Below, one piece after another: positions 96 to 31,275 of a DNA stretch of 64,000 nt. Numbering within the stretch: position 1 is the first letter of the stretch; each line of letters begins with the position of its first letter. The position numbers and the translations under genes are program-made. Source of the DNA: Escherichia coli (GTDB lineage: Bacteria > Pseudomonadota > Gammaproteobacteria > Enterobacterales > Enterobacteriaceae). The stretch lies in assembly GCF_050320075.1 (NCBI RefSeq), contig NZ_CP190018.1; one strand, 5' to 3'. The notes below the pieces were generated by a model. The model had not been told where the DNA came from. It saw only the letters and a program-made list of their open reading frames with translations, and did no database searches.

Positions 96-158
96 TTACC
101 CAACAGGTAAATGCACCTCATGGGTAACTATCCTTGATTTTTGTTACCTTATGGGTGA
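96..158. promoter_or_regulatory. Operator cluster: three TTACC-N5-GGTAA type palindromes (96-110 perfect; 113-127 and 144-158 degenerate) upstream of Cro-like gene
   Basis: Read directly: TTACCCAACAGGTAA, GCACCTCATGGGTAA, TTACCTTATGGGTGA, spaced like a lambdoid OR region. Confidence 0.6.
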
Positions 159-1607: not shown

Positions 1608-2389
1608 ACAACGTTTTTACCGCGATACAAAACCGTGACGGAGAAGCCCTTTCTCGCATGTCAGGTTATGAGCATCAGTACGTCAACAATGACAATGTGG
1701 TGAACATGTCAGCAGAGAGGCTTGTTGATGCCCTTTTTAAACAGCTGAAACAACTGTTTCCGGCGGCAGTGGTAACCAACCTGAAGACGCCAGAGCAGGA
1801 AGTTGCTGCAAAACAGCAGTGGATTGCTGCGTTTGCCGAAGGGGGGATCCGAACCCGTGAACAGGTTTCTGCTGGTATGCGCCACGCCCGCGCCAGTGAA
1901 TCTCCGTTCTGGCCGTCTCCAGGGCAATTTATCAAGTGGTGCAAAGACAGCAAGATGGTTCTTGGCGTCACCATTGACGATGTGATGGCGGAGTTTCACC
2001 GGTACAGCAAGGAAAAAAGTTTATATCCTGGTGGTCCCGAAAGATTCCCGTGGCGACATCCGGTTATGTACTGGGTCGTATGTGATACCCGCCGTGCAAT
2101 GTATCAGCGCCAGCTTAGCGAGATTGAGGTTGAGAAACACGCACGCAGGCTGCTCGATGATTGGGCGAAAAAGGTGGCTTCCGGACAGCAGATACCCGAT
2201 CCGGTGATCAGCATACAGGCAAAGCCAGAGCCCATGAGTACGCCTCCGGACACAGGGAGAGACGTTTACCATCCACCAGGGCGAAGTTTCGGGTGCATGC
2301 CTAACGCCGCCACCCTTGGGGGAATAACACCGGCGCAGTGGCTGATGGAGGAATACAGGCGGGGAAAGGCGGCAGGATTTATCAAGTAA
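1589..2389 (+). CDS. Replication protein P-like (DnaB helicase loader); start 1589 or GTG 1605
   Basis: Matches my recollection of lambda P, e.g. QQWIAAFAEGGIRTREQVSAGMRHARASESPFWPSPGQFIKWCKD versus lambda RQWVLAFRENGITTMEQVNAGMRVARRQNRPFLPSPGQFVAWCRE. Confidence 0.8.
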   Translation: MGGFLVNNVFTAIQNRDGEALSRMSGYEHQYVNNDNVVNMSAERLVDALFKQLKQLFPAAVVTNLKTPEQEVAAKQQWIAAFAEGGIRTREQVSAGMRHARASESPFWPSPGQFIKWCKDSKMVLGVTIDDVMAEFHRYSKEKSLYPGGPERFPWRHPVMYWVVCDTRRAMYQRQLSEIEVEKHARRLLDDWAKKVASGQQIPDPVISIQAKPEPMSTPPDTGRDVYHPPGRSFGCMPNAATLGGITPAQWLMEEYRRGKAAGFIK

Positions 2390-2426
2390 TACCAGCGCGA
2401 TAGCGCATTTTTTTACGTCTATATGA

Positions 2427-2503
2427 TTACCTGGAAGGTAATAAAATGTTCTAATCTCTATTGATTTCATGTCTTATGTGGTTTTTAATTACCTAAGGGG
2501 TAA
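2427..2503. promoter_or_regulatory. Two operator-like palindromes (2427-2441 TTACCTGGAAGGTAA; 2489-2503 TTACCTAAGGGGTAA) flanking a promoter region; the second abuts the start codon at 2507
   Basis: Perfect TTACC-N5-GGTAA copies read in the sequence. Confidence 0.6.
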
Positions 2504-2506
2504 ATC

Positions 2507-2854
2507 ATGAGAAAACAGATACAGGCTCTTGGTCGACTCAAAACAGGCCAGATGAACAAAACAGAATCTGCGTATTGCCAGCACCTTGAGCTGCGTAAAC
2601 GTGCAGGGGAAATCGCCTGGTATCGATTCGAGGGTATCAAGCTGCGGTTAGCTAATAACACGTTCTATACGCCCGATTTCGCTGTGATGCTCGCCACCGG
2701 CGAGATGGAGCTGCACGAAGTGAAAGGGGGATTCTGGACCGATGACGCCAGAGTGAAAACCAAAGTCGCCGCAGATCAGTATCCGTTCCGAATCATCGGG
2801 GTAACGGTTAAACCAAAGAAAGCAGGTGGTGGCTGGAACATCGAAGAGTTCTGA
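2507..2854 (+). CDS. DUF1064-like protein (putative PD-(D/E)XK-type nuclease of phage replication modules)
   Basis: 115 aa; motif YTPDFAV...ELHEVKGG resembles the DUF1064 signature as recalled. Confidence 0.5.
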   Translation: MRKQIQALGRLKTGQMNKTESAYCQHLELRKRAGEIAWYRFEGIKLRLANNTFYTPDFAVMLATGEMELHEVKGGFWTDDARVKTKVAADQYPFRIIGVTVKPKKAGGGWNIEEF

Positions 2855-2915
2855 ATCGACGATCTATTTAGTTATCAATGTAATCAATAAGTTATGTGGA
2901 TAAGCGAGGGTAAAG

Positions 2916-3482
2916 ATGGAAAGTAATATCAAAGGGTTAGTTGCCGCCGGGCATGAGATGGCTTCGGAACTGAAAGCAGAATGTGGTGCCGTTGATATGC
3001 GCAGTGTGGCAAAGCTGATCAGCGATTTGGCAACGCAACTGGAAGTGCAACTGGTGCGTGCTAATGCGCTGGCGGCGGAGAGTGCGGCAATGCATGAAAC
3101 TATTGAAGCCGTTCGGAGTGTTGCGGATAACTCCAGTGGAATTGCCGGATGGCATTTGAATGGCGATATCGCTACATGGGAAGAGATTCTTCCTGAAATT
3201 AACGATATCGAAACTCCAGCCACCGATGCTTTCCTGGCTGAAATTCGTGCGGAAGCACGCAACGAGGGGATTAACTATACCGCCAGCCGTCTTGCTGCTG
3301 CGTTCAATCACGGATTTATCAATAAATCTTTGCGTGAAGTTTTCGACGTTACACGCATGATTTTGTCAGCGAAAGAAGAGTTGGCTAATGAACCGCATCC
3401 GATTGATGGCCTGTCCGGTGAATATGCGGAGAAATCCCTTGAAGAATGGGCGGAACAGATTCGCAAAGGAGGCAAGCAGTGA
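2916..3482 (+). CDS. Hypothetical phage protein (nin-like region)
   Basis: 188 aa ORF, same strand, compact spacing. Confidence 0.5.
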   Translation: MESNIKGLVAAGHEMASELKAECGAVDMRSVAKLISDLATQLEVQLVRANALAAESAAMHETIEAVRSVADNSSGIAGWHLNGDIATWEEILPEINDIETPATDAFLAEIRAEARNEGINYTASRLAAAFNHGFINKSLREVFDVTRMILSAKEELANEPHPIDGLSGEYAEKSLEEWAEQIRKGGKQ

Positions 3483-3778
3483 GTGTATATCTTATTGATA
3501 AACGTCGACGTGGGCAACAAATACCACCTGTAGGAATTCCGAATCACACATGGTTTTGCGTACTTGATATCGATGGTATGGATGCGTTGGTTGACACTCG
3601 TCATTACTGCGATACCGCAACAGCTACTCCGGCGAAAGCAAAGAAAATGGCTGCTCTGATAGAAAACTGGACTCCACCTGATGGTTGGTGCAATGGGAAT
3701 GATCGAGATTGGCATGAAAAAATGAAGGGCTATATCTGCGATTTCTTACGTAAATGCAACGGATTCAGGGTGATGTGA
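3480..3778 (+). CDS. Hypothetical phage protein (GTG start)
   Basis: ORF overlapping the previous stop; start placement uncertain. Confidence 0.4.
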
Positions 3779-3779
3779 C

Positions 3780-4337
3780 ATGAACAAGATTGACTATCAG
3801 GCACTGCGTGAGGCGGCAGAGAAGGCAACGTGGGGAGACTGGGACTCATATAAACCACACCGTGGCGCACGTGGTTATGAGGTCCGACTAAGTAGTCAGG
3901 CCATTGCGCAACACGTTCTGAAAAACAACGCTGAATTTATTGCTGCCTTTAATCCAAAGATTGCTTTGGCACTACTGGATGAACGGGAAAGGAACCAGCA
4001 ATACATCAAATCCCGCGACCAGGAGAACGAGGATATTGCACTAACGGTAGGGAAGTTGCGCGTTGAGCTGGAAGCAGCAAAATCAAAACTCAACGAGCAG
4101 CGTGAGTATTACGAAGGTGTTATCTCTGATGGGAGTAAGCGCATAGCAGAGTTAGAAAGTGGTTCTCAGGCACAAAAGTTAGTTGAAGCAATCATTGTTG
4201 CGATAGAAAACGAACAGGAACGTCTTTTTGATGAAGATTACCTAATGGATTCGAAAGAATGCATTGACGTAATTCGTGAAGAAGTAAAGCGATGGGATGA
4301 TTCCCGCGCCGCTGGCATTGGCATCAAAGGAGAGTGA
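3780..4337 (+). CDS. ead/Ea22-like family protein
   Basis: 185 aa; N-terminus MNKIDYQALREAAEKATWGDWDSY resembles the lambdoid Ea22-like N-terminal signature; coiled-coil middle. Confidence 0.55.
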   Translation: MNKIDYQALREAAEKATWGDWDSYKPHRGARGYEVRLSSQAIAQHVLKNNAEFIAAFNPKIALALLDERERNQQYIKSRDQENEDIALTVGKLRVELEAAKSKLNEQREYYEGVISDGSKRIAELESGSQAQKLVEAIIVAIENEQERLFDEDYLMDSKECIDVIREEVKRWDDSRAAGIGIKGE

Positions 4338-4338
4338 T

Positions 4339-4602
4339 ATGGCAACTTTGACAAAAAAAGAACAAGCATGGTTGAGCGAATTACAGGACGTTCTTGATCG
4401 CTGCCCATCACCGAAAAAAATTGGTTTTTACACCATTGGCGATAAAAGCATTTACCTGTATGACCTGCGCCGCATGGATGAAATCATGGAGGCTCTTGAT
4501 AATCGTTCGTCAATGGATTGGTGTGTTGCTGTTCATGATATGAATGCCGGATTTGATGAAAAGATTTTATTCCCCTCATCAGTTGAAAGTACAGCAGGAT
4601 AA
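4339..4602 (+). CDS. Hypothetical phage protein
   Basis: ATG 4339 preceded by GGAGAG; 87 aa. Confidence 0.45.
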   Translation: MATLTKKEQAWLSELQDVLDRCPSPKKIGFYTIGDKSIYLYDLRRMDEIMEALDNRSSMDWCVAVHDMNAGFDEKILFPSSVESTAG

Positions 4603-4612
4603 GGACTAACAC

Positions 4613-5542
4613 ATGACCACTATTACCAAAGAGCGACTGCTGACAATCAGGCAGTGGCGCGAAACATACGGACCTGGTAGCAACGTTGTACTGCCAGCAG
4701 AAGAAGCGGAAGAACTGGCACGAATTGCTCTGGCATCGCTGGAGCAGAATGTACTATCGGGCAACTCTCCGCTTATTCCTGGTGAAGTGTTGTCCGCAAT
4801 CCGGGAGGTTGCCAGGATTCGTGCCGATTTCGATGATTTTGACGGTGACAGGCGAGGTATCGGTGATTGTCTGGATGAGGCCGAGCAAGAGCTTATCGTT
4901 ACCATTAACAAATATGCCAGTCAGTTGGCAGCAGAACCGATAGCGACTAATGACGTTCGAGAGCAGCAGACAGCCGTTCCGCCAGTTCCGGAAATACAGG
5001 ATGATGTCGCGCAAGCAATTGAAAATCTCAAGCAGAAGTTAGTGGAATGCAATCGCTATAACTACTGCGCAGATGCAGTTAAAGGCGTAGAGGATGCCTG
5101 CCATGCTGCCATGCTTCATAGTGCCGAACCTGCAAGTAATCATGAAGAGTTGCCGCTTGATTATCTCCAAGGTCAAAAAGATGGTCTTGAATGGGCTGCG
5201 CAGCTTGCAGAAGCAAATCACCCACAAACTGGCGACTGGCTTTACGATGACCCGCTGGAGGTGGCTAAAGCTATCAGAAAAGGTCCTGACATGCCCGAAT
5301 TCGATGGACCAACTCCGGCAACTCCGGATGGTTGGATAAGCTGTAGTGAGCGAATGCCGAACGATAAACAGTATGTTTGGTGTTGGGGTAAGTCTTACGG
5401 CTGGACTGAGTGCGATACCTTCGAAGGGTATTACGATTGGTCGAGAAACAAATGGTGGGCAGTTACTGACGATGGGGAAGAACCGGCATCGAAAGTAACC
5501 CACTGGATGCCGCTACCAGAACCGCCGCAGGAGGTGAAGTGA
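4613..5542 (+). CDS. DUF551 domain protein (nin-region type)
   Basis: 309 aa; C-terminal Trp-rich segment WCWGKSYGWTECDTFEGYYDWSRNKWWAV...THWMPLPEPP resembles DUF551. Confidence 0.55.
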   Translation: MTTITKERLLTIRQWRETYGPGSNVVLPAEEAEELARIALASLEQNVLSGNSPLIPGEVLSAIREVARIRADFDDFDGDRRGIGDCLDEAEQELIVTINKYASQLAAEPIATNDVREQQTAVPPVPEIQDDVAQAIENLKQKLVECNRYNYCADAVKGVEDACHAAMLHSAEPASNHEELPLDYLQGQKDGLEWAAQLAEANHPQTGDWLYDDPLEVAKAIRKGPDMPEFDGPTPATPDGWISCSERMPNDKQYVWCWGKSYGWTECDTFEGYYDWSRNKWWAVTDDGEEPASKVTHWMPLPEPPQEVK

Positions 5543-6081: not shown

Positions 6082-6114
6082 TTACCACAACGGTAACAAT
6101 TACCATGGTGGTTA
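6082..6114. promoter_or_regulatory. Operator-like palindromes at 6082-6096 (TTACCACAACGGTAA) and 6100-6114 (TTACCATGGTGGTTA, degenerate) upstream of terminase genes
   Basis: Read directly; they lie inside the over-extended track ORF 6036..6710. Confidence 0.55.
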
Positions 6115-9247: not shown

Positions 9248-9262
9248 TTACCTGAAAGGTAA
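9248..9262. promoter_or_regulatory. Operator-like palindrome TTACCTGAAAGGTAA upstream of the portal operon
   Basis: Perfect copy of the motif, followed by TAATAA. Confidence 0.6.
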
Positions 9263-22542: not shown

Positions 22543-25091
22543 TGGCAGCAAACGAATTTTTGACGCAGTGCGAGCGCAGTGTAAATGCTGCCGCTGGTCG
22601 CGAGCTTTCTTCCGATGAGATGGAGTCGCTGGTGCGTGACATGAACGACACCACTAGGCGAATTCTGGCGACCAATGAGGCGCTGTCTCTGGAAGAGGCC
22701 GCGATGCGCGCAGCGGAAGAACTGAGCAATGCCGATATGCTGGCAAAACAGATTGAGTCCCGCAATAAGGCAATCAACACCCGTATTGCCGCACAACGAC
22801 TTAGAGAGCTTCGTACTATCTGGAAAGACCGCCCGGATATCGGGCTTGAAGCAATGCTGGTTGGCCGCAACGATGCGCGTACCGGCGCCCGCCGGTCGGT
22901 ATCTTCGGAGGTGGCGCAACTGCGCGGCAAGTATCATTCCGGTATCAACTACGATTTTGACCGTGCCGGGCTGGTGCAATTCATCGCCAGCGGCAGCAAT
23001 GACAGGGAAATTGCCGATGCAATGTGGCGCATAGGGCGCGGGCAGTCAACTGACGGTATGACAAGGCAATCCGTAAGCGCTGCACAAATCATCATGAAAT
23101 GGCAGGAAACTGCGCACATTGATGAGAACCGCGCCGGGGCATGGATACGCAAAGAGCCGGGCTATATAGTGCGCCAGTCACACGACATCATGAAGATCCG
23201 CGCCGCAGGTTATGAAGCATGGCGAAATGCTATTCTCCCGCGCCTTGATGAGCGCACTTTTGACGGCGTGGCTGACCGCGAGCAGTTCATGCGTAACATT
23301 TATAACGGGCTGGCTTCCGGCGTGCATCTTACATCTGAAAAGCCCGATTGGATGAATGGCTTTAAGGGATCGGCGAACGCAGCTAAACGCGCCAGCCAAG
23401 AGCGAATTTTGCACTTCAAAGATGGTATCTCGTGGCACGAGTACAACCAGCAATTCGGCACCGGCAGCCTGCGAGAGGCGCTGTTTGGTGGCTTAAACAG
23501 CGCTGCCCGCACAACGGGCATGATGCGCGTACTGGGCACTAACCCACAGAACATGTTTAAGTACCTGACGGACACCATTGCTGAAGATATCAGCAAATCC
23601 GGAAGACCGGCAGCGTTGGCTGACTACATGACGAAGGTGCGTCGCATTAACCGTACCGTAATGCCGCAGGTTGACGGCTCGCTAAATATTCCTGGCAGCG
23701 TAGGCTGGGCCAATGCGTCGGCGGCTGTACGCGGCTGGTTGCGTATGAGCCAGCTTGGTGGCGCGGTAATCTCATCGTTTAACGACGTGCCTATCGCCGC
23801 TACCGAGATGCGCTACCAAGGGCAGAATTTTATGCAGGCGTTGCTTGGTGCTATGAGAGGCCGCTTCACGCGTTACAACAGCGCGGAGCAGAAAGAGATC
23901 CTTTCCTCTATCGGAGTTTATTCCGACTCCATGACGCAGGAAATCATCCGGCGTATATCTGGTGATGACACGCTGAATGGAAAACTTGGTCGCGCGCAGC
24001 AGCTTTTCTTTAAGTACAACCTCATGAACTTCTGGACCGAGAGCGGTCGCAACAGCAACGCCATGATGATAACCAACTGGCTTGCAAAGAATGCTGACCA
24101 GCCTCATGCGCGGCTACCGGAAGACCTGCGACGCGTGCTGGATCTGCACGGTATTGGCGAACGTGAGTGGGAAATTTTTCGCAACATGGACATGGCCGAT
24201 AGCGAAGGTCGTAAGTTCATGACGACCAGCGGCATCCGCGGCGTGCCTGACGAAGTGATTGCCGGTTATGTAGAGAGTAAGGGGATCAAGCCAACGCAGC
24301 GCGCTATCGCTGACGCACGCGATCAATTGGAAGGGCAGTTGCGCGGCTACATCCTTGACCGCCTGAATATCGCCATGTCAGAGCCTGGCGATCGCACGCA
24401 GGCGTTTATGAAGATGGGCACGGTGCCAGGAACGGTGGCTGGGGAAGCAATACGATTCGCTGGTCAGTACAAATCGTTCACTGCAAGCTTCATGCAGAAC
24501 GTACTAGGACGCGAAGTATTCGGGCGTGGTTATATTCCTGCTGGGCTTGGTGAGTCGAAAACCGGATCGCTGACGAATGCTCTGCTGCGTAACGGGAAGG
24601 GGGCTTTCCTTGGTGCTGCAAACCTCTTTGTCTGGGCGACTATGTTTGGTTATATCTCCATGCAGTCAAAACTCATGCTGAAAGGGCAAACACCACGCCC
24701 GGCAGATGCCAAGACGTTTCTCGCAGCCGCATCTCAGGGGGGCGGTCTTGGCATCTTGGGTGACTTCATGTTTGGCGAGGTCAACCGCATGGGGGCCGGG
24801 CCGGTTACGTCGCTAATGGGACCGGCAGCATCGAACGCTGACAGCATTATCACGCTGCTCCAGCAGACCACGAGAGGGGATGCAGATTTGGGTGACTGGT
24901 ATCGCACGGCACTTGACAATACGCCATTCCTCAACGTGTTCTGGCTTCGTACGGCGATGAATGGTTTAATATTGAACCGGATACAAGATGCCCTTGACCC
25001 AGGCTCTCTTGAGCGTTATCAGCGCCGTGTTGAGCGTGAGCAGGGTAACGAATTTCTGATCCCACCATCGCAGTTCATGCTAGGGAAGTAA
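22539..25091 (+). CDS. Putative ejection/internal virion protein
   Basis: 850 aa, coupled. Confidence 0.45.
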   Translation: MMAANEFLTQCERSVNAAAGRELSSDEMESLVRDMNDTTRRILATNEALSLEEAAMRAAEELSNADMLAKQIESRNKAINTRIAAQRLRELRTIWKDRPDIGLEAMLVGRNDARTGARRSVSSEVAQLRGKYHSGINYDFDRAGLVQFIASGSNDREIADAMWRIGRGQSTDGMTRQSVSAAQIIMKWQETAHIDENRAGAWIRKEPGYIVRQSHDIMKIRAAGYEAWRNAILPRLDERTFDGVADREQFMRNIYNGLASGVHLTSEKPDWMNGFKGSANAAKRASQERILHFKDGISWHEYNQQFGTGSLREALFGGLNSAARTTGMMRVLGTNPQNMFKYLTDTIAEDISKSGRPAALADYMTKVRRINRTVMPQVDGSLNIPGSVGWANASAAVRGWLRMSQLGGAVISSFNDVPIAATEMRYQGQNFMQALLGAMRGRFTRYNSAEQKEILSSIGVYSDSMTQEIIRRISGDDTLNGKLGRAQQLFFKYNLMNFWTESGRNSNAMMITNWLAKNADQPHARLPEDLRRVLDLHGIGEREWEIFRNMDMADSEGRKFMTTSGIRGVPDEVIAGYVESKGIKPTQRAIADARDQLEGQLRGYILDRLNIAMSEPGDRTQAFMKMGTVPGTVAGEAIRFAGQYKSFTASFMQNVLGREVFGRGYIPAGLGESKTGSLTNALLRNGKGAFLGAANLFVWATMFGYISMQSKLMLKGQTPRPADAKTFLAAASQGGGLGILGDFMFGEVNRMGAGPVTSLMGPAASNADSIITLLQQTTRGDADLGDWYRTALDNTPFLNVFWLRTAMNGLILNRIQDALDPGSLERYQRRVEREQGNEFLIPPSQFMLGK

Positions 25092-25092
25092 T

Positions 25093-25464
25093 ATGAACAG
25101 AATTATATTAATGATTATTCTTATGCTTTTAGCTGTAAAATCTTTTGCAGATACTACCTCACCGTTAATGATTCAGCCTAAAAATGGGGAAACACTGGAG
25201 GACTCTAAAAAGCATACAATGGAATATTTTGGATGTATAAAAGGGCAGGCCGTAAAATACGCTAAGACAGGAGAAAGTGTTGATTCTATATCCAAAGCTT
25301 CGGTTGTGTCATGCGAGTCGTACATACAAAAGATTGCTGAATCAAATATATACTATTTAAATTCCTCTCAAGACGGTAAGCGGAAATTTATTGGAAGGCT
25401 TAAATCAGATGGTGAAAATTTAGCAACGAAATTTGCTATGGATGAAAAGCTAAAAAATAAATAG
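25093..25464 (+). CDS. AT-rich moron: small secreted/periplasmic protein (signal peptide MNRIILMIILMLLAVKSFA)
   Basis: 123 aa; visibly lower GC than flanking genes; N-terminal signal-peptide-like segment. Confidence 0.55.
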   Translation: MNRIILMIILMLLAVKSFADTTSPLMIQPKNGETLEDSKKHTMEYFGCIKGQAVKYAKTGESVDSISKASVVSCESYIQKIAESNIYYLNSSQDGKRKFIGRLKSDGENLATKFAMDEKLKNK

Positions 25465-25471
25465 GTGACAC

Positions 25472-25768
25472 ATGCAAGCGATAGGATTCATTGTTTATAT
25501 CGTCGTTGGTCTTTTTCAGTTGGCAGCAATTATGGCTGGGCTTGAATCATGGTGGGGATTGCACTGGATAATTGCAGCCCCCATTGCTTTCATCGTGAGC
25601 TATATTCCATTTGTTGGAGCGATTGTTGGTATGGTTGGTGCTGTGGATGTATGGCGGTGGGAGTGGTGGCAGGCTGGCCTTCTCTTCTTTGGTGGGATCA
25701 TCTTTGCTATTGTCTGCGGTGGAATGTCATCATTTTTCGAACGGCTATCATTCAGAAAAGGAACGTGA
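25472..25768 (+). CDS. Small integral membrane protein (about 3 TM helices)
   Basis: 98 aa, hydrophobic segments; stop TGA inside the GTGACATGTCAC palindrome. Confidence 0.55.
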   Translation: MQAIGFIVYIVVGLFQLAAIMAGLESWWGLHWIIAAPIAFIVSYIPFVGAIVGMVGAVDVWRWEWWQAGLLFFGGIIFAIVCGGMSSFFERLSFRKGT

Positions 25769-25776
25769 CATGTCAC
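25765..25776. repeat. Perfect 12-bp palindrome GTGACATGTCAC (copy 3)
   Basis: Read directly; overlaps stop 25766-25768; followed by a terminator. Confidence 0.9.
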
Positions 25777-25800
25777 AGGCCGCTTTCGCGGCCTTGTTTT
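25777..25800 (+). terminator. Rho-independent terminator
   Basis: AGGCCGC-TTTC-GCGGCCT followed by TGTTTT. Confidence 0.65.
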
Positions 25801-25961
25801 TAACGAATGCCACCGCCACCCGGGCGGGAATCCGCAGAACGCCCACCGCAGCGGGAGCCGTCAGCGGCAGTATCGCTGTCGTGCTGACAACGACCGGCAA
25901 AGGCCTGAGTTGAAGCTACCAGAGACAACAAAACGAACAGTGCAGCAAATGCTTTTTTCAT
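25800..25961 (-). CDS. Candidate small secreted peptide, 53 aa (signal peptide MKKAFAALFVLLSLVASTQAFA + 31-aa Gly/Ser/Asp-rich part with 2 Cys)
   Basis: Internal ATG of track ORF 25800..26033; sigma70-like promoter on the minus strand (TTGACG 26002-25997, 16-nt spacer, TATAGA 25980-25975); weak RBS. Confidence 0.3.
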   Translation of the reverse strand: MKKAFAALFVLLSLVASTQAFAGRCQHDSDTAADGSRCGGRSADSRPGGGGIR

Positions 25962-26030
25962 TGTGAAATTTCCATCTATAAGCCACCTCAATGTGGCGTC
26001 AATGAGTGTAGCACTGACTTTTGTTTCGTC

Positions 26031-26054
26031 CACAAAAAAGCCCGCAGCGCGGGC
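26031..26054 (-). terminator. Rho-independent terminator ending the minus-strand accessory operon
   Basis: GCCCGC-AGC-GCGGGC immediately after stop 26055-26057, followed on the minus strand by CTTTTTTGT. Confidence 0.7.
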
Positions 26055-26603
26055 TTACTTTTCTTCAGGTTTGTTGTCTTCAGATTTCTTCTTGATGCTT
26101 GGTTTTTGTCTAAGAACGAAAATACCAGCCACTGCAACAACTGTACCGATCACTGTGCCAGCTAGAACTTCATGACCTGTTAAACCTAATAATGTTGCAC
26201 AAGCTACTGTAAAAATAGTTGCACTCAGGCCAAACCACTGCCCACGTTTATCTCTATTAATAGCCCCGTCAAGTGCCTTTTCCTCCATTTTCTGGCGGTG
26301 AGCAAACTCCTTCTCCGTCAGCTGGAAGATGCGTTCGGGGGCATCAGGTAAAATATCCTGATACCCGCGAAGCAGATAGGGGGGAGGAAGCGGACCCTGA
26401 AACGCATGGTGAGCGACAACTATCTCCTGAATTTCAGGGCGATCAAGAACTCTTGTGAAGGCATCTGGGTGTTGAATGATCTCGTTACTTAGCCCTTCCT
26501 CAACTTCCTCGAACTCAGTTTCTTCGTTATCACTTGGTTGCCCAATAGATTTTTGCATATTTGTCGAAGGACATTCCTTTAGCTTCTGGTTTTCCTCTTG
26601 CAT
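26055..26603 (-). CDS. Membrane protein: acidic N-terminal soluble domain plus C-terminal TM helices (possibly DUF2335-like)
   Basis: 182 aa; hydrophobic stretch WFGLSATIFTVACATLLGLTGHEVLAGTVIGTVVAVAGIFVL near the C-terminus; start 26603 or 26558. Confidence 0.5.
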   Translation of the reverse strand: MQEENQKLKECPSTNMQKSIGQPSDNEETEFEEVEEGLSNEIIQHPDAFTRVLDRPEIQEIVVAHHAFQGPLPPPYLLRGYQDILPDAPERIFQLTEKEFAHRQKMEEKALDGAINRDKRGQWFGLSATIFTVACATLLGLTGHEVLAGTVIGTVVAVAGIFVLRQKPSIKKKSEDNKPEEK

Positions 26604-26856
26604 TTGAGTTTTTCCCTGTCACTATTGCCCATTTTCCGCCAGCAGGCGCTGCAATTTTTTTTCCGTTCTTTACTATATATTCAGCATAAACACGATTTTC
26701 TGACCGTCTGAGATCGTCTCCGACCATATTCATGTCTCTTGATATAACTTTGACGACAGAGTCTCGGTTTAAAGCCTTGGCATAGTTGGAGCCAGGAACG
26801 ATACCCAAAGGGGTGCCAGACTCTATAGCCAGCTCCTTGACATATCTTCTGCTCAT
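26530..26856 (-). CDS. Hypothetical small protein (108 aa from ATG 26856)
   Basis: GAGG RBS before MSRRYVKELA; overlaps the 5' end of the downstream membrane-protein ORF. Confidence 0.45.
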   Translation of the reverse strand: MSRRYVKELAIESGTPLGIVPGSNYAKALNRDSVVKVISRDMNMVGDDLRRSENRVYAEYIVKNGKKIAAPAGGKWAIVTGKNSNARGKPEAKGMSFDKYAKIYWATK

Positions 26857-26977
26857 ATGAACCTCAACCAATCGACTTTACCAATCGGGTAATTTTAAAC
26901 ATGAGTATAATGCTTTTAACTGCAACGAGTGTAAACAATTATTGATAATTGTAGGCACATCCCTGTGCCGCCGCCCG

Positions 26978-27664
26978 TCAGAAGAACCCTGCTTTGTCGT
27001 TGATGTACTCCGCGTGCGTCTGGATATCACGCAGGCATTTACTCACACCGACGATGTAGCAGAACATGGTGGTCAACTCCGCCGCCGCGCCCGATACGTC
27101 GTGCCCGTCGTCCTGTAACTGGTTCAGCAAATTCATCAGCAGTGAGTTCTCCGTCAGGCCGAGAACACCAGACGGCGAATGAATCAGGCTACGGTAGCCG
27201 GGCTTCAGTGGGGCGCTGTAGGTTTTGTTCTCTATCTTCATTGCCTGCATCACTGCTGATGCTGTGGCGTTGGCTACCTGGTCGGCAACCATCTTTATGC
27301 GTTCTTCCTGCGGGAGCGAGTTTTTAATGTAACTTCCGGTGCGGCGGATCTGAGGAAGAACCTCACCTGTAACCCATTTGCGAAAGCGGTAGGGGATAGT
27401 GCCTGGTGTTACTGCATCGCGGCAGCGGAGGATCAGTGTGTAGAGGCCTGACTCGTTGATAATATTGGTTTCGCCTTGACGGCCTAAGTTAAATTTAGCC
27501 CTTTCATCATCATCAAGAGATTTTATTGACATAGTGGGGTTTGTCAGTTGAAGAGCTTTAATAACGTCTTTGGCAACAAACCAAGGATTTCCATCAATAA
27601 CAATGGCTCGAATGGTTGCTTCTGATTCAAAATGAAAAACAGATGGGGTTACGTTAGCAGTCAT
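26978..27664 (-). CDS. Bro-N domain antirepressor-like protein (start trimmed to ATG 27664)
   Basis: N-terminal FHFESEATIRAIVIDGNPWFVAKDVIKAL...NIINESGLYTLILRCRDA resembles Bro-N; SD AAGGTGA before ATG 27664. Confidence 0.6.
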   Translation of the reverse strand: MTANVTPSVFHFESEATIRAIVIDGNPWFVAKDVIKALQLTNPTMSIKSLDDDERAKFNLGRQGETNIINESGLYTLILRCRDAVTPGTIPYRFRKWVTGEVLPQIRRTGSYIKNSLPQEERIKMVADQVANATASAVMQAMKIENKTYSAPLKPGYRSLIHSPSGVLGLTENSLLMNLLNQLQDDGHDVSGAAAELTTMFCYIVGVSKCLRDIQTHAEYINDKAGFF

Positions 27665-27932
27665 AGTGATCACCTTTGTAGTTAGGTTAATCACCACTAC
27701 CGACGCCAATCGGTTGGTGGTGAACTGTGCAGGGTTGGCGTAACCGGCTACAAAGGACCCGGCGCACCTTTCGGTGCCCCCACACAGCCCACCATAGAAT
27801 AGGTGCGCTTTACACATAAAAAAAACCGCTTATGCGGCATATGTGCCTCTGTAGTAACTCGGGACGCCAATCCCGGCACTGGATTTTGCCAGTGCCCGAT
27901 TACTATGGCACAAGAGGAGTGCGTTGTAAATT

Positions 27933-27947
27933 TACCGCAAAGGTAAA
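27933..27947. promoter_or_regulatory. Operator-like palindrome TTACCGCAAAGGTAA upstream of the Bro-N gene
   Basis: Perfect copy, intergenic. Confidence 0.6.
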
Positions 27948-27977
27948 TATAAGCACTCCACTTGGCAATTGCAAACC

Positions 27978-28235
27978 TTATCTGGTTTGTTTTCGTAATT
28001 GTTCGGCACAATAGTCGAGATGTGTTTGCAGATCCCGCATAGACATCTGTGAGCTGGTGACGTAGTTAATCAGTGCAGTCAGTTCGGCAAGTGGGCCATC
28101 GACATTAAATCCATCCTTATCGAGATCCCGGAGTAATTTCATCAAGTGCGATCCCTCCACCAGTGACCTGACGCCTCCCGGCGTGTGAATCCTTTCGGTA
28201 AATCCGTCTTCCAGTGGATAGTGATACTGCTGCAT
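27978..28235 (-). CDS. Small protein paralogous to the C-terminal domain of the adjacent Bro-N protein
   Basis: HTPGGVRSLVEGSHLMKLLRDLDKDGFNVDGPLAELTALINYV...MRDLQTHLDY aligns with Bro-N C-terminus HSPSGVLGLTENSLLMNLLNQLQDDGHDVSGAAAELTTMFCYI...LRDIQTHAEY. Confidence 0.5.
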   Translation of the reverse strand: MQQYHYPLEDGFTERIHTPGGVRSLVEGSHLMKLLRDLDKDGFNVDGPLAELTALINYVTSSQMSMRDLQTHLDYCAEQLRKQTR

Positions 28236-28312
28236 CTTAATCTTCTCCATGCAATAACTGTATATTTATACAGTATCAAATAATTTGTTTGCTATCCAGC
28301 ACGTTTTGCAAA

Positions 28313-28327
28313 TTACCTGAAAGGTAA
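28313..28327. promoter_or_regulatory. Operator-like palindrome TTACCTGAAAGGTAA in the divergent region before the tailspike gene
   Basis: Perfect copy; identical to the copy at 9248. Confidence 0.6.
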
Positions 28328-28431
28328 TATCTATTCATATTCACAGTCTTTCTATCCATATATGGTTTTTTGGGTAATAGAATAACCAGATATGCGGCGC
28401 AACGGGTGCTGCGACTATCTGGAGATTTAAC

Positions 28432-31275
28432 ATGACGGTCTCAACCGAAGTTGACCACAACGAATACACAGGTAACGGCGTTACGACATCGTTTCCGTAT
28501 ACTTTTCGAATTTTCAGAAAATCAGACCTGGTTGTTCAGGTGTCTGACCTGAACGGGAACGTAACAGAATTGGTTCTGGATACCGGTTATACGGTAACTG
28601 GGGCGGGCACTTATAGTGGCGGTTCAGTGGTTCTGCCGTCTCCGCTTGCTGCTGGCTGGCGAATTACGATAGATCGTGTGCTTGATGTAGTGCAGGAGAC
28701 AGACCTCCGCAATCAGGGAAAGTTTTTCCCCGAAGTGCATGAAGATGCCTTTGACTACCTGACGATGCTGATCCAGCAATGTTTTGGGTGGTTCAGACGT
28801 GCATTGATGAAGCCCTCTCTGCTTGCAAAATATTACGATGCAAAGCAAAACAGAATTTCTAACCTTGCAGATCCATCACTTGAGCAGGACGCTGTAAATA
28901 ATCGCTCAATGCGTAATTATGTCGATGCTGCAATCGCCGGAGTTGTTGGTGGTTTTGGTTGGTTTATTCAGTATGGTTCTGGGGCAGTATATCGCACCTT
29001 CCAGGACAAGATGCGAGATGAAATAAATGTTCATGATTATGGTGCTATAGGTGATGGAAATTATCACCCGCTTTCTGAACGTTATTCATCGTTGGCTGCT
29101 GCGCAGCAACAATATCCATTTGCTACTTCCCTTGGTCAGTCTATTGACTGGGCTGCAATACAGGCAGCGATCAATGCCTCACAAGGCAGAAAGGTAAAAT
29201 TATTAGCAAAAACATACATTTCTACTGATGGATTCACTGGCGTTGATGGTCTTTGTTTAATTGGTGAAGGTGCTACCCCTTTTTACCTTAACTTTCAGGA
29301 CATTCCATACACCAACAATGGTGGTACTGACATTCTTTTCTATGGTACAGGCCAAAAGAACAGAAGCATTTATGGTATTTCGGATATGCAGCCATCCGGT
29401 GGTGTGAGGACAGATCCTGATTTAGGCGTGACTCATGCATTAACCAATATGACGAATGGAGACGCCAGCACTTCGGCGGCTGCAACCCCTCGAGCAGTAA
29501 GCGCTGGCTTATACCTTGAGCATTGCAAAGGCTGGCAAATTGAGGGAATCCGATTTGCTCCATATTTTAACGGGGTCGAATCATATACAGACCAGACTAA
29601 CTTAGGGCTGGCTGATGAATGGGATATCGGAATTCTCATCAATAGTTCTTATGATGGTGTAATGCGCGATGTTCGCGCGGTTGGGCACTGGCGAGTTGCT
29701 GGCCTGGCTGTGTTTGCAGGCGAAAATCCTTTCAACACAGGCGCGTCATCTTCATGTGAACGAAACAGATTTTTTTCCTGTCAGTTTAATGGAAAGTCTG
29801 GCGTTCTTATTCGCGGCGGGGATGCCTACCGGTGTACAGCAGTAACAGCTGACACTGTCGAAATTCCATGGCACGATTCAAACCCGTTCCGGCATACCGG
29901 TGGGGTATTTCTTGGGGCCTTTGGTGGCGCAACCTCTGCAAGCTATACCTATACCAGCGCAACGGTTACCGGTGATAAGCTGACGCTCCACGGAGTAAGC
30001 CCTAACCCTTTATCGAATGGTATGACAACATCTTCAGGGGTGTATACCGGTAGAAGTTATGGGTTCCAGGGTACGCAATTCTTTGGTTGTTACTTTGGCG
30101 GCCTTGAGCATCAGACTAACCGAGTGGCTACAGACCCGGCGCTTACCTCACCATTCCCTACGTCGTCAAAACCTGTCGAAATTTCAGGTGTTCCGGCAGG
30201 AAATATCAGGTTCTATGGTTGTACGCACATGACCCGGGAAGACTGTGTGTGGATGATCCATAACGCCTCAAATATCTACGACTTCGGAGGCTATTTTGAG
30301 GCCAAGCGAGCGATCACTGCTACTGGCGGCGGCTCGCGCATGGTAGCCATCGGTAATTGGCCTGATTACACCCCGACTGCAGAATCACCATATCCGTTTG
30401 GTACGGTCAGTAACATAAATATGTTCGGTTCGCAGGCTCTTAATTTCGTTGATATGTACCCTGTAGTTGCCCGTTCTACAGGTGTAACGCGCTTTACCTC
30501 CGGGATGTGGGATTGTAAGACCCTCTATAGCTCCGAGGCATTTCAGGATCTTGCTGACACCAACAACTATGTAATAAAGGGTTTACGAAACGAAAGCATA
30601 AGGTTCGAGGACGGAGCCGGCGGCCATCTTATGACCATGCAGAATATTGGCAATCTCCTGCTTGGTAAGCGCGCCAGATTTAACACCTCAACAGAGGATC
30701 GTTATCAGTTCTATCGACTCGATGGAACAACCATTTTCTTATCCCTCGATGGCACGATGTCCACGCCAGTAATGACTCTGGATGGAAACTTTGTCCCTGC
30801 AGTTGCCAATACAAGGTTGGTCGGAACTGCGGCCAAGCCCTTCTCGGGAGGTAATACCCAGACAGCTTATAACATCACTTCTGACCGGAACTACAAAACT
30901 GACTTTGGTGAAATTCCTGACGCCGTTCTGGATGCATGGGAATTGGTGCAGTATTCACAATATAAACTCAGGGATGCAGTTGCGTTGAAGGGGGAAGGCG
31001 CCAGATTACATGTCGGTGTTGTTGCACAGCAGGTGAAAGAGGCATTTGAATCAGTAGGGGTCGATCCTTTTGCATATGGCGTACTGTGCTACGACGAATG
31101 GTCTGGTCAGGAAGAAGTTATTGAGGACGGTGTCATTACGCAGCAAAAAGTGGAAGCAGGGAAGCGTTACAGTGTGCGCTACGAAGAGGCATATGCAATA
31201 GAGTCCGCCTTGCTTCGGAGAACTCATACCAGATTGGAGCAGCGCTTATCTTCTCTTGAAGAAAAATCAAAATAG
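28432..31275 (+). CDS. Tailspike/tail fibre protein with C-terminal intramolecular chaperone (peptidase S74-like) domain
   Basis: 947 aa; GGAG RBS; N-terminal virion-binding-like region; C-terminal region containing SDRNYK and GVVAQQVKEAFESVG resembles autocleaving chaperone domains. Confidence 0.7.
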   Translation: MTVSTEVDHNEYTGNGVTTSFPYTFRIFRKSDLVVQVSDLNGNVTELVLDTGYTVTGAGTYSGGSVVLPSPLAAGWRITIDRVLDVVQETDLRNQGKFFPEVHEDAFDYLTMLIQQCFGWFRRALMKPSLLAKYYDAKQNRISNLADPSLEQDAVNNRSMRNYVDAAIAGVVGGFGWFIQYGSGAVYRTFQDKMRDEINVHDYGAIGDGNYHPLSERYSSLAAAQQQYPFATSLGQSIDWAAIQAAINASQGRKVKLLAKTYISTDGFTGVDGLCLIGEGATPFYLNFQDIPYTNNGGTDILFYGTGQKNRSIYGISDMQPSGGVRTDPDLGVTHALTNMTNGDASTSAAATPRAVSAGLYLEHCKGWQIEGIRFAPYFNGVESYTDQTNLGLADEWDIGILINSSYDGVMRDVRAVGHWRVAGLAVFAGENPFNTGASSSCERNRFFSCQFNGKSGVLIRGGDAYRCTAVTADTVEIPWHDSNPFRHTGGVFLGAFGGATSASYTYTSATVTGDKLTLHGVSPNPLSNGMTTSSGVYTGRSYGFQGTQFFGCYFGGLEHQTNRVATDPALTSPFPTSSKPVEISGVPAGNIRFYGCTHMTREDCVWMIHNASNIYDFGGYFEAKRAITATGGGSRMVAIGNWPDYTPTAESPYPFGTVSNINMFGSQALNFVDMYPVVARSTGVTRFTSGMWDCKTLYSSEAFQDLADTNNYVIKGLRNESIRFEDGAGGHLMTMQNIGNLLLGKRARFNTSTEDRYQFYRLDGTTIFLSLDGTMSTPVMTLDGNFVPAVANTRLVGTAAKPFSGGNTQTAYNITSDRNYKTDFGEIPDAVLDAWELVQYSQYKLRDAVALKGEGARLHVGVVAQQVKEAFESVGVDPFAYGVLCYDEWSGQEEVIEDGVITQQKVEAGKRYSVRYEEAYAIESALLRRTHTRLEQRLSSLEEKSK

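What the first reader, a model, noticed from the sequence alone, without database searches (positions are those of the whole stretch)
26055..27664. Minus-strand accessory operon: Bro-N antirepressor-like protein, small protein and membrane protein
Three opposite-strand genes sit between the ejection-protein genes and the tailspike, with their own operator-like site (27933) and a strong terminator (26031-26054). The position parallels P22 immI, but the composition differs: a membrane protein with an acidic cytoplasmic domain is paired with a Bro-N protein. The membrane plus small protein pair could be an abortive-infection or exclusion module. Function is unknown.
Basis: inference. Interest (0 to 1): 0.6.

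Follow-up and report, generated by a model that had tools for sequence, protein, structure and literature searches.

The report
Phage antirepressor unit plus unknown membrane cassette
This stretch of an epsilon15/phiV10-like E. coli prophage holds an ordinary antisense-RNA-controlled antirepressor gene followed by a separate, mobile two-gene cassette (a small basic protein plus a DUF2335 membrane protein) that is widespread, always paired and of unknown function.

Summary
The three minus-strand genes, the palindrome near 27933 and the terminator at 26038-26056 are all real. They are not one novel operon.

**Antirepressor unit.** The Bro-N gene (26978-27664) is preceded by an isrK-like RNA and a C4 antisense RNA, both above Rfam gathering scores. 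The C4 loop pairs with the gene's ribosome-binding site, and loop and targets co-vary in four phage lineages. This is the phage P1 immI / Gifsy-1 isrK-anrP design, not the P22 one. An 82%-identical protein in phage ZX5 lowered lysogeny about 1000-fold when overexpressed.

**Cassette.** The 108-aa gene and the DUF2335 gene form a separate unit with its own promoter, palindrome and terminator.
- It lies upstream of the RNA unit in Klebsiella, after Q in a lambdoid phage, and inside a myovirus baseplate cluster.
- A YafO toxin pair occupies the same slot in phage TL-2011b.
- Every DUF2335 gene I examined, across phyla, has a small upstream partner with a shared signature.

No homology, structure or literature assigns the cassette a function. 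My best guess is a membrane-acting toxin-antitoxin or abortive-infection type module (about 0.3).

**Unexplained.** The palindrome TTACC-N5-GGTAA is scattered through epsilon15-like genomes, yet it also travels with the cassette into other phage types.

The parts
28313..28327 (.). Perfect palindrome TTACC-N5-GGTAA between the 90-aa gene and the tailspike gene
   Evidence: one of 8 perfect copies in the prophage part of the window
27978..28250 (-). 90-aa gene (epsilon15 gp19-like, phrog_450). It is a free-standing homologue of the antirepressor's C-terminal domain.
   Evidence: 2.4e-48; 41% identity to residues 143-224 of the Bro-N protein, E 2e-17
27946..27974 (-). Upstream promoter-like site: -35 TTGCAA, -10 TATATT. 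The -10 hexamer abuts the palindrome.
   Evidence: consensus match only
27932..27946 (.). Perfect palindrome TTACCGCAAAGGTAA.
27902..27930 (-). isrK promoter-like site: -35 TTTACA, TG-extended -10 CATAGT ending 7 nt before the isrK 5' end
27819..27895 (-). isrK-like small RNA carrying the b1 (27863-27872) and a1 (27846-27855) target boxes and its own terminator (27825-27838)
   Evidence: Rfam RF01394, 74.2 bits against gathering 50; c4-a1b1 RF03163, 44.3 bits, just under gathering 46.7; repeats D3 and D4; terminator
27713..27799 (-). C4-type antisense RNA with loop a' at 27748-27756 and loop b' at 27732-27741
   Evidence: Rfam RF01695, 79.5 bits against gathering 45; complementarity
27673..27711 (-). 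Downstream C4 targets: b2 (27702-27711) and a2 (27673-27682). The a2 box covers the Shine-Dalgarno sequence of the Bro-N gene.
   Evidence: 9/9 complementarity CCTTTGTAG/CTACAAAGG (I7); co-variation of loop and targets in 4 lineages
26978..27664 (-). Antirepressor gene: N-terminal Bro-N domain plus a lineage-specific C-terminal domain
   Evidence: functional data for the ZX5 orthologue in PMC9782041
26892..26935 (-). Promoter-like sites of the cassette: TTTACA-17-CATTAT, and TTAAAA-16-TAAAAT whose -10 abuts the palindrome
   Evidence: the same -10/palindrome arrangement occurs in L013, L014, L017 and L067
26878..26892 (.). Perfect palindrome TTACCCGATTGGTAA (minus-strand reading), starting 36 nt upstream of the 108-aa gene's ATG
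26530..26856 (-). 108-aa basic protein (net +11, pI 10), the partner of DUF2335. Signature: G-T/S-x-L-x-I-x-P/G, then D-M/W-x-x-V-G-x-D-L.
26055..26603 (-). DUF2335 membrane protein: acidic N-terminal ~55 residues, GPLPPP motif, one long helix running into TM1, then TM2 and a basic tail. Alternative start at 26558. Overlaps the 108-aa gene by 74 or 29 nt.
26038..26056 (-). Intrinsic terminator ending the cassette (stem also scored on the + strand)
25800..25961 (-). 53-aa signal-peptide protein gene downstream of the terminator. It also follows the cassette in a lambdoid context. Whether it belongs to the cassette is uncertain.
   Evidence: (phrog_14503)

Best explanation
The window is an epsilon15/phiV10-like (Uetakevirus) prophage. 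The finding is the accessory region between its internal-virion-protein genes and its tailspike gene. It contains separately promoted minus-strand units, each headed by a copy of the palindrome TTACC-N5-GGTAA.

**Unit 1: antirepressor under antisense-RNA control.** This is the P1 immI / Gifsy-1 isrK-anrP design.
- Transcripts start at the isrK promoter. Most should stop at the isrK terminator.
- Read-through RNA contains the C4 RNA.
- Loop a' of C4 pairs with the Shine-Dalgarno sequence of the Bro-N gene. Loop b' pairs with a box just upstream. The upstream a1/b1 boxes in isrK can compete for C4.
- This keeps the antirepressor silent until the balance shifts. The protein then counteracts the prophage repressor.
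- What is shown: the RNA families, the complementarity and the co-variation. Antirepressor activity is taken from the published ZX5 orthologue. The direction of regulation is inferred from the P1 and Gifsy-1 work.

**Unit 2: a self-contained mobile cassette.** It consists of a promoter, the palindrome, the 108-aa gene, the overlapping DUF2335 gene and a terminator.
- What is shown: the two genes are an obligate pair conserved across phyla and across phage types.
- What is inferred: the basic 108-aa protein binds the acidic cytoplasmic N-terminus of the two-helix membrane protein. The pair acts as a toxin-antitoxin-like or abortive-infection module, with DUF2335 as membrane effector and the small protein as its regulator or neutraliser.
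- I give that functional guess about 0.3. The architectural statements I give about 0.85-0.9.
For: **Phage identity**
-.

**Unit 1**
- isrK scores 74.2 bits (gathering 50) and C4 scores 79.5 bits (gathering 45).
- The same RNA pair lies upstream of the antirepressor gene in phiV10, TL-2011b, L005, L007, L010 and Klebsiella L013.
- The C4 loop is complementary to CTACAAAGG, which overlaps the Shine-Dalgarno sequence 8 nt before the ATG.
- The loop changes between lineages and both targets change with it: CCTTTGTAG, CCTTTTAG, CCTACTAG, CCGTTTAG.
- Bro-N domain and PHROG Ant families match.
- ZX5 ORF4, 82% identical, cut lysogens from 1e9 to 1e6 and repressor mRNA by 75% when overexpressed (PMC9782041).
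- The Gifsy-1 locus has the same gene order (PMC4825925).

**Unit 2**
- Every homologue of the 108-aa protein that I looked up is followed by an overlapping DUF2335 gene.
- Distant DUF2335 genes in Prevotella and other contigs also have a small upstream gene, overlapping or closely adjacent, with a shared signature.
- An HMM built from 11 partners hit the frame just upstream of DUF2335 in 63 of 80 IMG/VR loci, and nothing else among 5943 frames.
- The pair changes position relative to Bro-N: upstream of isrK in Klebsiella, and with no Bro-N at all in L016.
- The pair also sits after Q in a lambdoid phage and inside a myovirus baseplate cluster.
- A YafO toxin pair fills the same slot in TL-2011b.
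- One distant copy lies in an island dense with toxin-antitoxin genes.
- Charge complementarity is +7 to +11 against -10/-11 in all five enterobacterial pairs examined.
- A palindrome abutting a -10-like hexamer heads the cassette in five diverged lineages.
Against: **Cassette function**
- No toxin, antitoxin or defence family matches either cassette protein.
- There are no PDB sequence relatives.
- The fused AlphaFold model found no fold relatives, with E above 7.
- The model of the small protein alone is of low confidence, pLDDT 58.5.
- No interface score was available, so the proposed complex rests only on gene overlap and charge.
- ZX5 lysogens, which carry the identical cassette, showed no change in growth, stress response or virulence (PMC9782041). 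That paper does not describe a heterologous phage challenge of the lysogen.
- If the palindrome is the prophage repressor's operator, the cassette would be silent in lysogens. That fits a lysogen-expressed defence gene poorly.

**Unit 1**
- There is no icd-like or clearly separate orf45-like leader gene.
- No transcript data were available, so promoters, termination and processing are predictions.
Confidence: 0.6

Rival explanations
1. The cassette is a superinfection-exclusion device. The inner-membrane DUF2335 protein blocks genome entry of incoming phages, as P22 SieA or HK97 gp15 do, and the small protein helps its insertion or regulation.
For: - It is a two-helix inner-membrane protein encoded as an accessory gene in prophages.
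- Its position between ejection-protein genes and the tailspike matches where P22 keeps sieA (my own knowledge of the P22 map).
- Copies lie next to an integrase or a CI-like repressor in other prophages (L111, L114).
- One copy sits inside a tail-gene cluster, like the HK97 gp15 moron.
Against: - The pair also occurs outside recognisable prophages, for example beside glnK and metabolic genes and in a toxin-antitoxin island. It is also conserved from Enterobacterales to Prevotella. Neither fits a device tuned to particular phages.
- The obligatory cytoplasmic partner has no counterpart in SieA or gp15.
- No PHROG exclusion family matched.
Confidence: 0.2
2. The cassette is a regulatory device. 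The basic 108-aa protein is a DNA-binding repressor of the TTACC-N5-GGTAA palindrome. The acidic cytoplasmic domain of the membrane protein sequesters it at the membrane, in the manner of Mlc-PtsG. The cassette would then autoregulate. Because epsilon15-like phages carry the same palindrome at most promoters, it could repress those phages in trans.
For: - The palindrome travels with the cassette into three phage types, and it is the only perfect copy in 41 kb around the myovirus-borne cassette.
- It abuts a -10-like hexamer, a typical autorepressor position.
- The partner has pI 10 and the DUF2335 N-terminus has pI 4.2.
- The upstream gene of a two-gene module is commonly its autoregulator (general knowledge of type II toxin-antitoxin operons).
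Against: - No DNA-binding domain was detected in the 108-aa protein.
- phiV10 and the YafO cassette carry the palindrome without the 108-aa gene, so another binder must exist.
- The motifs conserved in the partner are also conserved in Bacteroidota lineages that lack this palindrome. They more likely serve DUF2335 binding.
Confidence: 0.15
3. One reading: one minus-strand operon of three genes driven from the site near 27933. On this view it is a compositional variant of P22 immI, with the two downstream genes co-regulated with the antirepressor.
For: - All three genes share a strand, and there is no predicted terminator between 27664 and 26056 on the minus strand. Read-through from the antirepressor unit into the cassette is therefore possible.
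- In E. coli epsilon15-like prophages the order Bro-N, 108-aa gene, DUF2335 is fixed.
Against: - A 121-nt AT-rich gap with two promoter-like sites and a perfect palindrome precedes the 108-aa gene.
- The pair sits upstream of the isrK promoter in Klebsiella, without Bro-N in L016, and in unrelated phage modules elsewhere.
- P22-type regulators (Mnt, Arc, sar) are absent. C4 and isrK are present instead.
Confidence: 0.1
4. The cassette serves the phage's own lytic cycle. It would be repressed in the lysogen through the palindrome and expressed early after induction or infection, for example to take over the host membrane, time lysis or block cell division.
For: - The palindrome family flanks the repressor gene and most promoters of phiV10, so it is plausibly the repressor's operator. 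That would silence the cassette in lysogens.
- The two-helix protein with a charged C-terminal tail looks loosely like a holin.
- P1 keeps the cell-division inhibitor icd in its immI operon (my own knowledge).
Against: - The cassette is dispensable. phiV10 lacks it, and only 67 of 5426 complete E. coli genomes carry it.
- The phage has its own holin, endolysin and spanin genes elsewhere.
- Copies occur in non-phage chromosomal contexts.
Confidence: 0.1

Closest known systems
Phage P1/P7 immI operon (c4 antisense RNA, icd, ant)
   Same: - A C4-family RNA is made from the leader of the antirepressor transcript.
- Two loop sequences (a', b') are complementary to paired target boxes both upstream (a1, b1) and downstream (a2, b2).
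- The downstream target covers a ribosome-binding site.
- A repressor-type operator lies at the promoter.
   Different: - There is no icd-like gene. C4 targets the ribosome-binding site of the antirepressor gene itself.
- The antirepressor here is a Bro-N protein. I recall P1 Ant being a different protein, but I did not compare the sequences.
- The palindrome is symmetric, unlike the asymmetric C1 operator (my own knowledge of P1).
- The host phage is a 40-kb podovirus.
Gifsy-1 isrK-orf45-anrP-isrJ locus of Salmonella (PMC4825925)
   Same: - The order is the same: promoter, isrK RNA with its own terminator, a processed C4-like RNA region (STnc1160), then an antirepressor gene reached by read-through.
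- The isrK Rfam model matches at 74 bits.
   Different: - There is no clearly separate orf45. Instead, an open frame runs from an ATG at 27817 into the Bro-N gene.
- No isrJ match was found downstream.
- I did not test whether short isrK activates translation in trans, or whether an AntQ-like antiterminator is a downstream target.
Phage vB_EcoP_ZX5 ORF4 antirepressor (MW722083; PMC9782041)
   Same: - The region is 97% identical in DNA.
- The antirepressor is 82% identical, with the last 150 residues identical.
- The 108-aa protein is 100% identical and DUF2335 is 99% identical.
- Overexpressed ORF4 pushed the phage toward lysis.
   Different: - The N-terminal Bro-N domain is a different allele.
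- The paper mentions neither the RNAs nor the cassette, whose genes it calls hypothetical.
Phage P22 immI (mnt, arc, ant, sar RNA)
   Same: - An antirepressor region lies on the opposite strand between the ejection-protein genes and the tailspike gene.
- TL-2011b carries a true Arc/Ant/sar set in this same region.
   Different: - There is no Mnt, Arc or sar in the window.
- Control is by C4/isrK RNAs.
Type II toxin-antitoxin operons (for example the YafO-family pair in the same slot of TL-2011b)
   Same: - Two small overlapping genes.
- A palindrome at the promoter.
- Mobility between unrelated elements.
- Occurrence in toxin-antitoxin-rich islands.
- Positional replacement by a YafO pair.
   Different: - There is no homology to any known toxin or antitoxin.
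- The downstream product is a membrane protein.
- The upstream product is basic and the downstream product acidic, the reverse of the usual charge pattern.
- Toxicity is untested.
Lambda RexA/RexB and other soluble-sensor plus membrane-effector abortive-infection pairs
   Same: A prophage-encoded pair of a cytoplasmic protein and a small multi-helix inner-membrane protein, sitting in accessory positions next to immunity genes.
   Different: - There is no sequence or fold relationship.
- RexB has four membrane helices (my own knowledge).
- The function here is untested.

Membership tests
Bro-N domain proteins (Pfam PF02498) | Significant match to the Bro-N profile over the N-terminal ~100 residues | tested here: met
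   i-Evalue 1.3e-19, residues 18-104, model positions 2-96 of 96
Phage antirepressors (functional class) | The protein inactivates the prophage repressor and promotes lytic growth | not testable with these tools
   Indirect only. PHROG Ant families match. The 82%-identical ZX5 ORF4 lowered lysogens 1000-fold when overexpressed (PMC9782041).
KilAC/ANT-type antirepressors (P22 Ant-like C-terminal domain) | Pfam KilAC (ANT) domain in the C-terminal half | tested here: not met
   Only Bro-N was found, even at E<=10. The C-terminal domain belongs to phrog_450/15539 and is shared with the 90-aa ORF.
C4 antisense RNA (Rfam RF01695) | Covariance-model score at or above the gathering threshold | tested here: met
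   79.5 bits against 45, full-length match 1-87
P1 immI-type control | C4 loops complementary to target boxes upstream and downstream, with the downstream box masking a ribosome-binding site | tested here: met
   a'/a2 pair 9 of 9 over the Shine-Dalgarno sequence. b' pairs with b1 and b2. Loop and targets co-vary in 4 lineages.
P1 immI-type control | An icd-like leader gene translationally coupled to ant | tested here: not met
   Only 48 nt separate C4 from the Bro-N ATG, with no separate ORF
isrK RNA (Rfam RF01394) | Covariance-model score at or above gathering, with a terminal hairpin and U-run | tested here: met
   74.2 bits against 50; terminator at 27825-27838
P22 immI | Mnt and Arc ribbon-helix-helix repressors and sar antisense RNA beside ant | tested here: not met
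   No sar match in 24500-29000 at E<=1. No Arc or Mnt family among the ORFs. TL-2011b, by contrast, scores for sar and Arc.
DUF2335 (Pfam PF10097) | Match to the 50-residue profile, followed by two membrane helices | tested here: met
   3.4e-15, model positions 1-50 of 50. Two C-terminal helices modelled at pLDDT above 90.
Type II toxin-antitoxin systems | Two small co-directional, overlapping genes with a palindrome at the promoter | tested here: met
   Overlap of 29 or 74 nt; palindrome abutting a -10-like hexamer
Type II toxin-antitoxin systems | Homology to a known toxin or antitoxin family | tested here: not met
   No Pfam, NCBIfam or PADLOC match beyond DUF2335
Type II toxin-antitoxin systems | One product is toxic and is neutralised by direct binding of the other | not testable with these tools
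   Needs expression experiments. Only charge complementarity was seen.
Known anti-phage defence systems (PADLOC-DB v2) | Match to a defence-system protein model | tested here: not met
   Only a chance-level MTase_II hit at E 0.039
Superinfection-exclusion membrane proteins (SieA, HK97 gp15 type) | Homology to a described exclusion protein family | tested here: not met
   The PHROG search returned only phrog_3996, 'membrane protein'. Exclusion activity itself cannot be tested here.

The most novel reading that the evidence does not exclude
The DUF2335 membrane protein and its small upstream partner may form a previously unrecognised two-gene system. It is widespread, from Enterobacterales to Prevotella, and occurs in prophages and in toxin-antitoxin islands.

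In enterobacteria it carries its own operator, and that operator is the same palindrome that epsilon15-like phages use at most of their promoters. The cassette would then be wired into that phage family's repressor network, or would mimic it. For example, it could be a portable membrane-gated repressor or abortive-infection module that senses or silences epsilon15-like phages from whatever prophage carries it.
Probability: 0.2. Interest if true: 0.7.

Novelty: new member of a known kind. Interest (0 to 1): 0.42.

Why it matters
**Antirepressor part.** It adds little. It places epsilon15/phiV10-like phages, including the studied phage ZX5, among the users of the P1/Gifsy-1 antisense-RNA switch. 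That explains how their antirepressor is kept silent, and it offers clean natural co-variation for the C4-target interaction.

**Cassette.** This is the part worth a bench test.
- DUF2335 is a large family with no function in the literature I could search.
- This analysis shows it is always one half of a gene pair with a recognisable partner family.
- The pair behaves as a mobile accessory module in prophages.
- A phenotype such as toxicity, phage exclusion or abortive infection would give a function to several hundred uncharacterised proteins (432 matched in one capped search).

**Shared palindrome.** The link between cassette and phage genome is a concrete, testable regulatory puzzle.

Tried and rejected
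- **Family libraries.** PADLOC and NCBIfam scans of all seven local proteins gave nothing usable.
- **Solved structures by sequence.** Profile searches of PDB sequences with both cassette families gave only chance hits.
- **Structure prediction.**
  - A fused AlphaFold model (108-aa protein, linker, DUF2335) reached mean pLDDT 69.5. Foldseek against the PDB found nothing below E 7.
  - The 108-aa protein alone, with a 14-sequence alignment, reached pLDDT 58.5. That is too low for a meaningful fold search, so I ran none.
  - No interface score is returned by the tool, so the proposed complex could not be assessed.
- **Representative-protein search.** The exhaustive search with the 108-aa protein returned 19 hits. 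Those in giant repeat proteins (for example P0039-P0043) look like composition matches to its Gly/Lys-rich middle, and I set them aside.
- **Literature.**
  - The two T6SS papers read call 'DUF2335' a phospholipase toxin domain. That cannot be this 50-residue membrane-protein family. I believe they mean DUF2235 (my own knowledge), and I rejected them as irrelevant. The other two papers that mention DUF2335 were not opened.
  - 'PF10097' and 'COG5346' gave one unrelated paper.
- **Weak RNA hit.** A Trp-leader hit at the terminator (E 0.56, below gathering) was dismissed.
- **MqsA lead.** The palindrome core resembles the MqsA site AACCT-N3-AGGTT. The outer base differs, and only about 59% of copies carry the inner T/A. 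It stays a lead, not a finding.
- **Lineage-specific palindromes.** A search upstream of distant cassettes for lineage-specific palindromes gave only scattered, inconsistent inverted repeats.
Full report
**What is there**

The window is an epsilon15/phiV10-like (Uetakevirus) prophage.
- The region 25000-28500 is 97-98% identical to phages EC.W1-9 and vB_EcoP_ZX5, and it matches phiV10 and TL-2011b in pieces.
- In RefSeq E. coli genomes the same genes lie in a prophage that ends beside yfgI.
- Their family assignments are DUF2335 (3.4e-15), phrog_10654 with no Pfam match, and Bro-N with PHROG antirepressor families.
- The terminator at 26038-26056 and a perfect palindrome at 27932-27946 are present.

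**The antirepressor unit**

Between the palindrome and the Bro-N gene, Rfam finds an isrK RNA at 27819-27895 (74.2 bits, gathering 50) and a C4 antisense RNA at 27713-27799 (79.5 bits, gathering 45). The a1/b1 target model scores just under threshold. A promoter-like site (TTTACA, 17 nt, TG-CATAGT) ends 7 nt before the isrK 5' end, and isrK has its own hairpin and U-run.

- The C4 loop sequence CCTTTGTAG is perfectly complementary to CTACAAAGG. That sequence overlaps the Shine-Dalgarno sequence 8 nt before the Bro-N ATG.
- A second box, GATTGGCGTC, occurs both upstream in isrK and downstream of C4.
- Across four lineages the loop changes: CCTTTGTAG, CCTTTTAG, CCTACTAG, CCGTTTAG. The upstream and downstream targets change with it, with one G-U wobble in Klebsiella.
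- The RNA pair precedes the antirepressor gene in phiV10, TL-2011b, three further E. coli prophages and a Klebsiella prophage. One of those E. coli antirepressors has an ORF6N domain in place of Bro-N.

This is the architecture of P1 immI and of the Gifsy-1 isrK-orf45-anrP locus (PMC4825925). It is not that of P22 immI, since no sar, Arc or Mnt is present.

Evidence on function comes from phage ZX5.
- Its ORF4 is 82% identical to the window protein, with the C-terminal 150 residues identical.
- When overexpressed, it lowered lysogens from 1e9 to 1e6 and repressor mRNA by 75% (PMC9782041).

The C-terminal ~100 residues are shared at 85% between the Bro-N-type and ORF6N-type proteins. They are 41% identical to the free-standing 90-aa ORF at 27978-28250. 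There is no KilAC domain.

**The cassette is a separate unit**

A 121-nt AT-rich gap with two promoter-like sites and a perfect palindrome (26878-26892, starting 36 nt before the ATG) precedes the 108-aa gene. The pair moves independently of Bro-N.
- In Klebsiella prophages it lies upstream of the isrK promoter, or is present with no Bro-N gene at all.
- A 35%-identical version sits after the Q antiterminator gene of a lambdoid element.
- A version with 42%-identical DUF2335 sits inside the baseplate gene cluster of a myovirus-type prophage found in 16 complete E. coli genomes.
- phiV10 has nothing in the slot, and TL-2011b has a YafO-family toxin pair there.
- The window's version occurs in 67 of 5426 complete E. 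coli genomes, always on the chromosome.

**The pair is obligate and widespread**

- The 108-aa family is tiny by sequence search, but each homologue I looked up is followed by an overlapping DUF2335 gene.
- DUF2335 is a large family: 432 proteins matched in a search that scored only the top 8000 candidates, and none of the 120 listed carries a functional name.
- In the six distant members examined, a small upstream gene overlaps or sits next to the DUF2335 start. These include Prevotella, a toxin-antitoxin-rich island and a locus near an integrase.
- All eleven partners share a two-part signature: G-T/S-x-L-x-I-x-P/G, then about 20 residues later D-W/M-x-x-V/I-G-x-D-L.
- An HMM built from those eleven was run against all 5943 open frames of 80 independent IMG/VR loci. 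At E<=1e-3 it hit the frame immediately upstream of DUF2335 in 63 loci and nothing else.
- Thirteen of the loci without a hit show a recognisable variant of the signature by eye. The other four lack enough upstream sequence to judge.

**What the proteins look like**

- DUF2335 has an acidic N-terminal ~55 residues, an invariant GPLPPP motif, and a long helix that continues into the first of two membrane helices (pLDDT above 90). It ends in a basic tail.
- The partner is basic. In the five enterobacterial pairs its net charge is +7 to +11, against -10/-11 for the DUF2335 N-terminus.
- The partner models as a helix carrying the D-M-x-x-V-G-x-D motif, four short strands and a C-terminal helix. 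Confidence is low, and the N-terminus is not modelled reliably.
- The conserved K-Y-A near the partner's C-terminus encodes the internal ATG of DUF2335 in most lineages. In Klebsiella that ATG is lost and an upstream start must be used, so the true start in E. coli (26603 or 26558) remains open.

**Mechanism**

No database, structure or paper assigns a function.

The evidence consists of two small overlapping genes, a palindrome at the promoter, mobility, accessory positions, replacement by a known toxin pair, and presence in toxin-antitoxin islands. On that evidence I favour a toxin-antitoxin-like or abortive-infection module with a membrane effector, at about 0.3.

The alternatives are:
- superinfection exclusion (0.2);
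- a membrane-gated DNA-binding regulator (0.15);
- a lytic-cycle function (0.1).

**An unexplained link**

TTACC-N5-GGTAA has the extended consensus ATTACCTtWaAGGTAAT, from 51 distinct copies.
- It has 8 perfect copies in the prophage part of the window (0.03 expected) and 8 in phiV10.
- In phiV10 it lies at nearly every intergenic region, including both sides of the repressor gene. This looks like a dispersed operator for the phage repressor.
- Yet a perfect copy also sits 31-66 nt upstream of the partner gene, abutting a -10-like hexamer, in five diverged cassette lineages in three phage types.
- It is the only perfect copy in 41 kb around the myovirus-borne cassette.

The binder could be the phage repressor, the 108-aa protein or a host factor. 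The core resembles the MqsA palindrome but is not identical to it.

**Verdict**

The antirepressor unit is a known kind, with an experimentally studied near-identical relative. The cassette is a real, conserved and uncharacterised gene pair that merits a simple expression and phage-challenge test.

Noticed in passing
window 27978-28250 (-): The 90-aa ORF (epsilon15 gp19-like, phrog_450) is a free-standing copy of the antirepressor's C-terminal domain (41% identity, E 2e-17). It has its own palindrome upstream at 28313-28327. It could modulate or compete with the antirepressor.
   Followed up: partly
L007 2907-3626 compared with window 26978-27664: Antirepressors in sibling prophages swap the N-terminal domain (Bro-N or ORF6N) but keep the same C-terminal ~100 residues (85% identity). 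The C-terminal domain may therefore be the part specific to this phage lineage.
   Followed up: partly
L003 (phiV10) 3063-3742: phiV10 p23 diverges from the window's antirepressor after residue ~181 and ends early. The annotated 29-aa p22 looks like the out-of-frame remnant, so phiV10's antirepressor may be truncated.
   Followed up: no
window 25800-25961 (-): A 53-aa protein with a signal peptide and a ~31-residue mature part containing two cysteines (phrog_14503) lies just past the terminator. A ~70%-identical copy follows the cassette in the lambdoid locus L017 (3933-4094). The same 53-aa gene follows the YafO pair in TL-2011b.
   Followed up: partly
L002 (TL-2011b) 1780-5070: TL-2011b carries two antirepressor systems side by side. 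One is P22-type (Arc, Ant, sar RNA). The other is the P1-type isrK/C4-Bro-N unit.
   Followed up: no
window 96-110, 144-158, 481-495, 2427-2441, 2489-2503, 6082-6096, 9248-9262: Further copies of the TTACC-N5-GGTAA palindrome lie in front of the cro-like gene, after the replication genes, at the start of the terminase gene and before the portal gene. The layout resembles the dispersed operators of P1. The repressor gene itself lies just off the window's left end.
   Followed up: partly
window 26978-27817 (-): An open frame starts at an ATG right after the isrK terminator and runs through the C4 region in frame into the Bro-N gene. The same occurs in Klebsiella L012/L013. It might be the counterpart of Gifsy-1 orf45 or of the two in-frame Ant forms of P1.
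   Followed up: no
L115 20082-20406 (E. coli BEN2908): RefSeq annotation leaves the partner gene of the myovirus-borne DUF2335 cassette unannotated. The partner family is probably under-called in databases.
   Followed up: no
L033 1426-6090: In one metagenomic contig the DUF2335 pair is flanked by three MqsA-like/XRE helix-turn-helix genes, with HicB and HepT/MNT toxin-antitoxin genes nearby. This hints at control by an XRE-type regulator.
   Followed up: no
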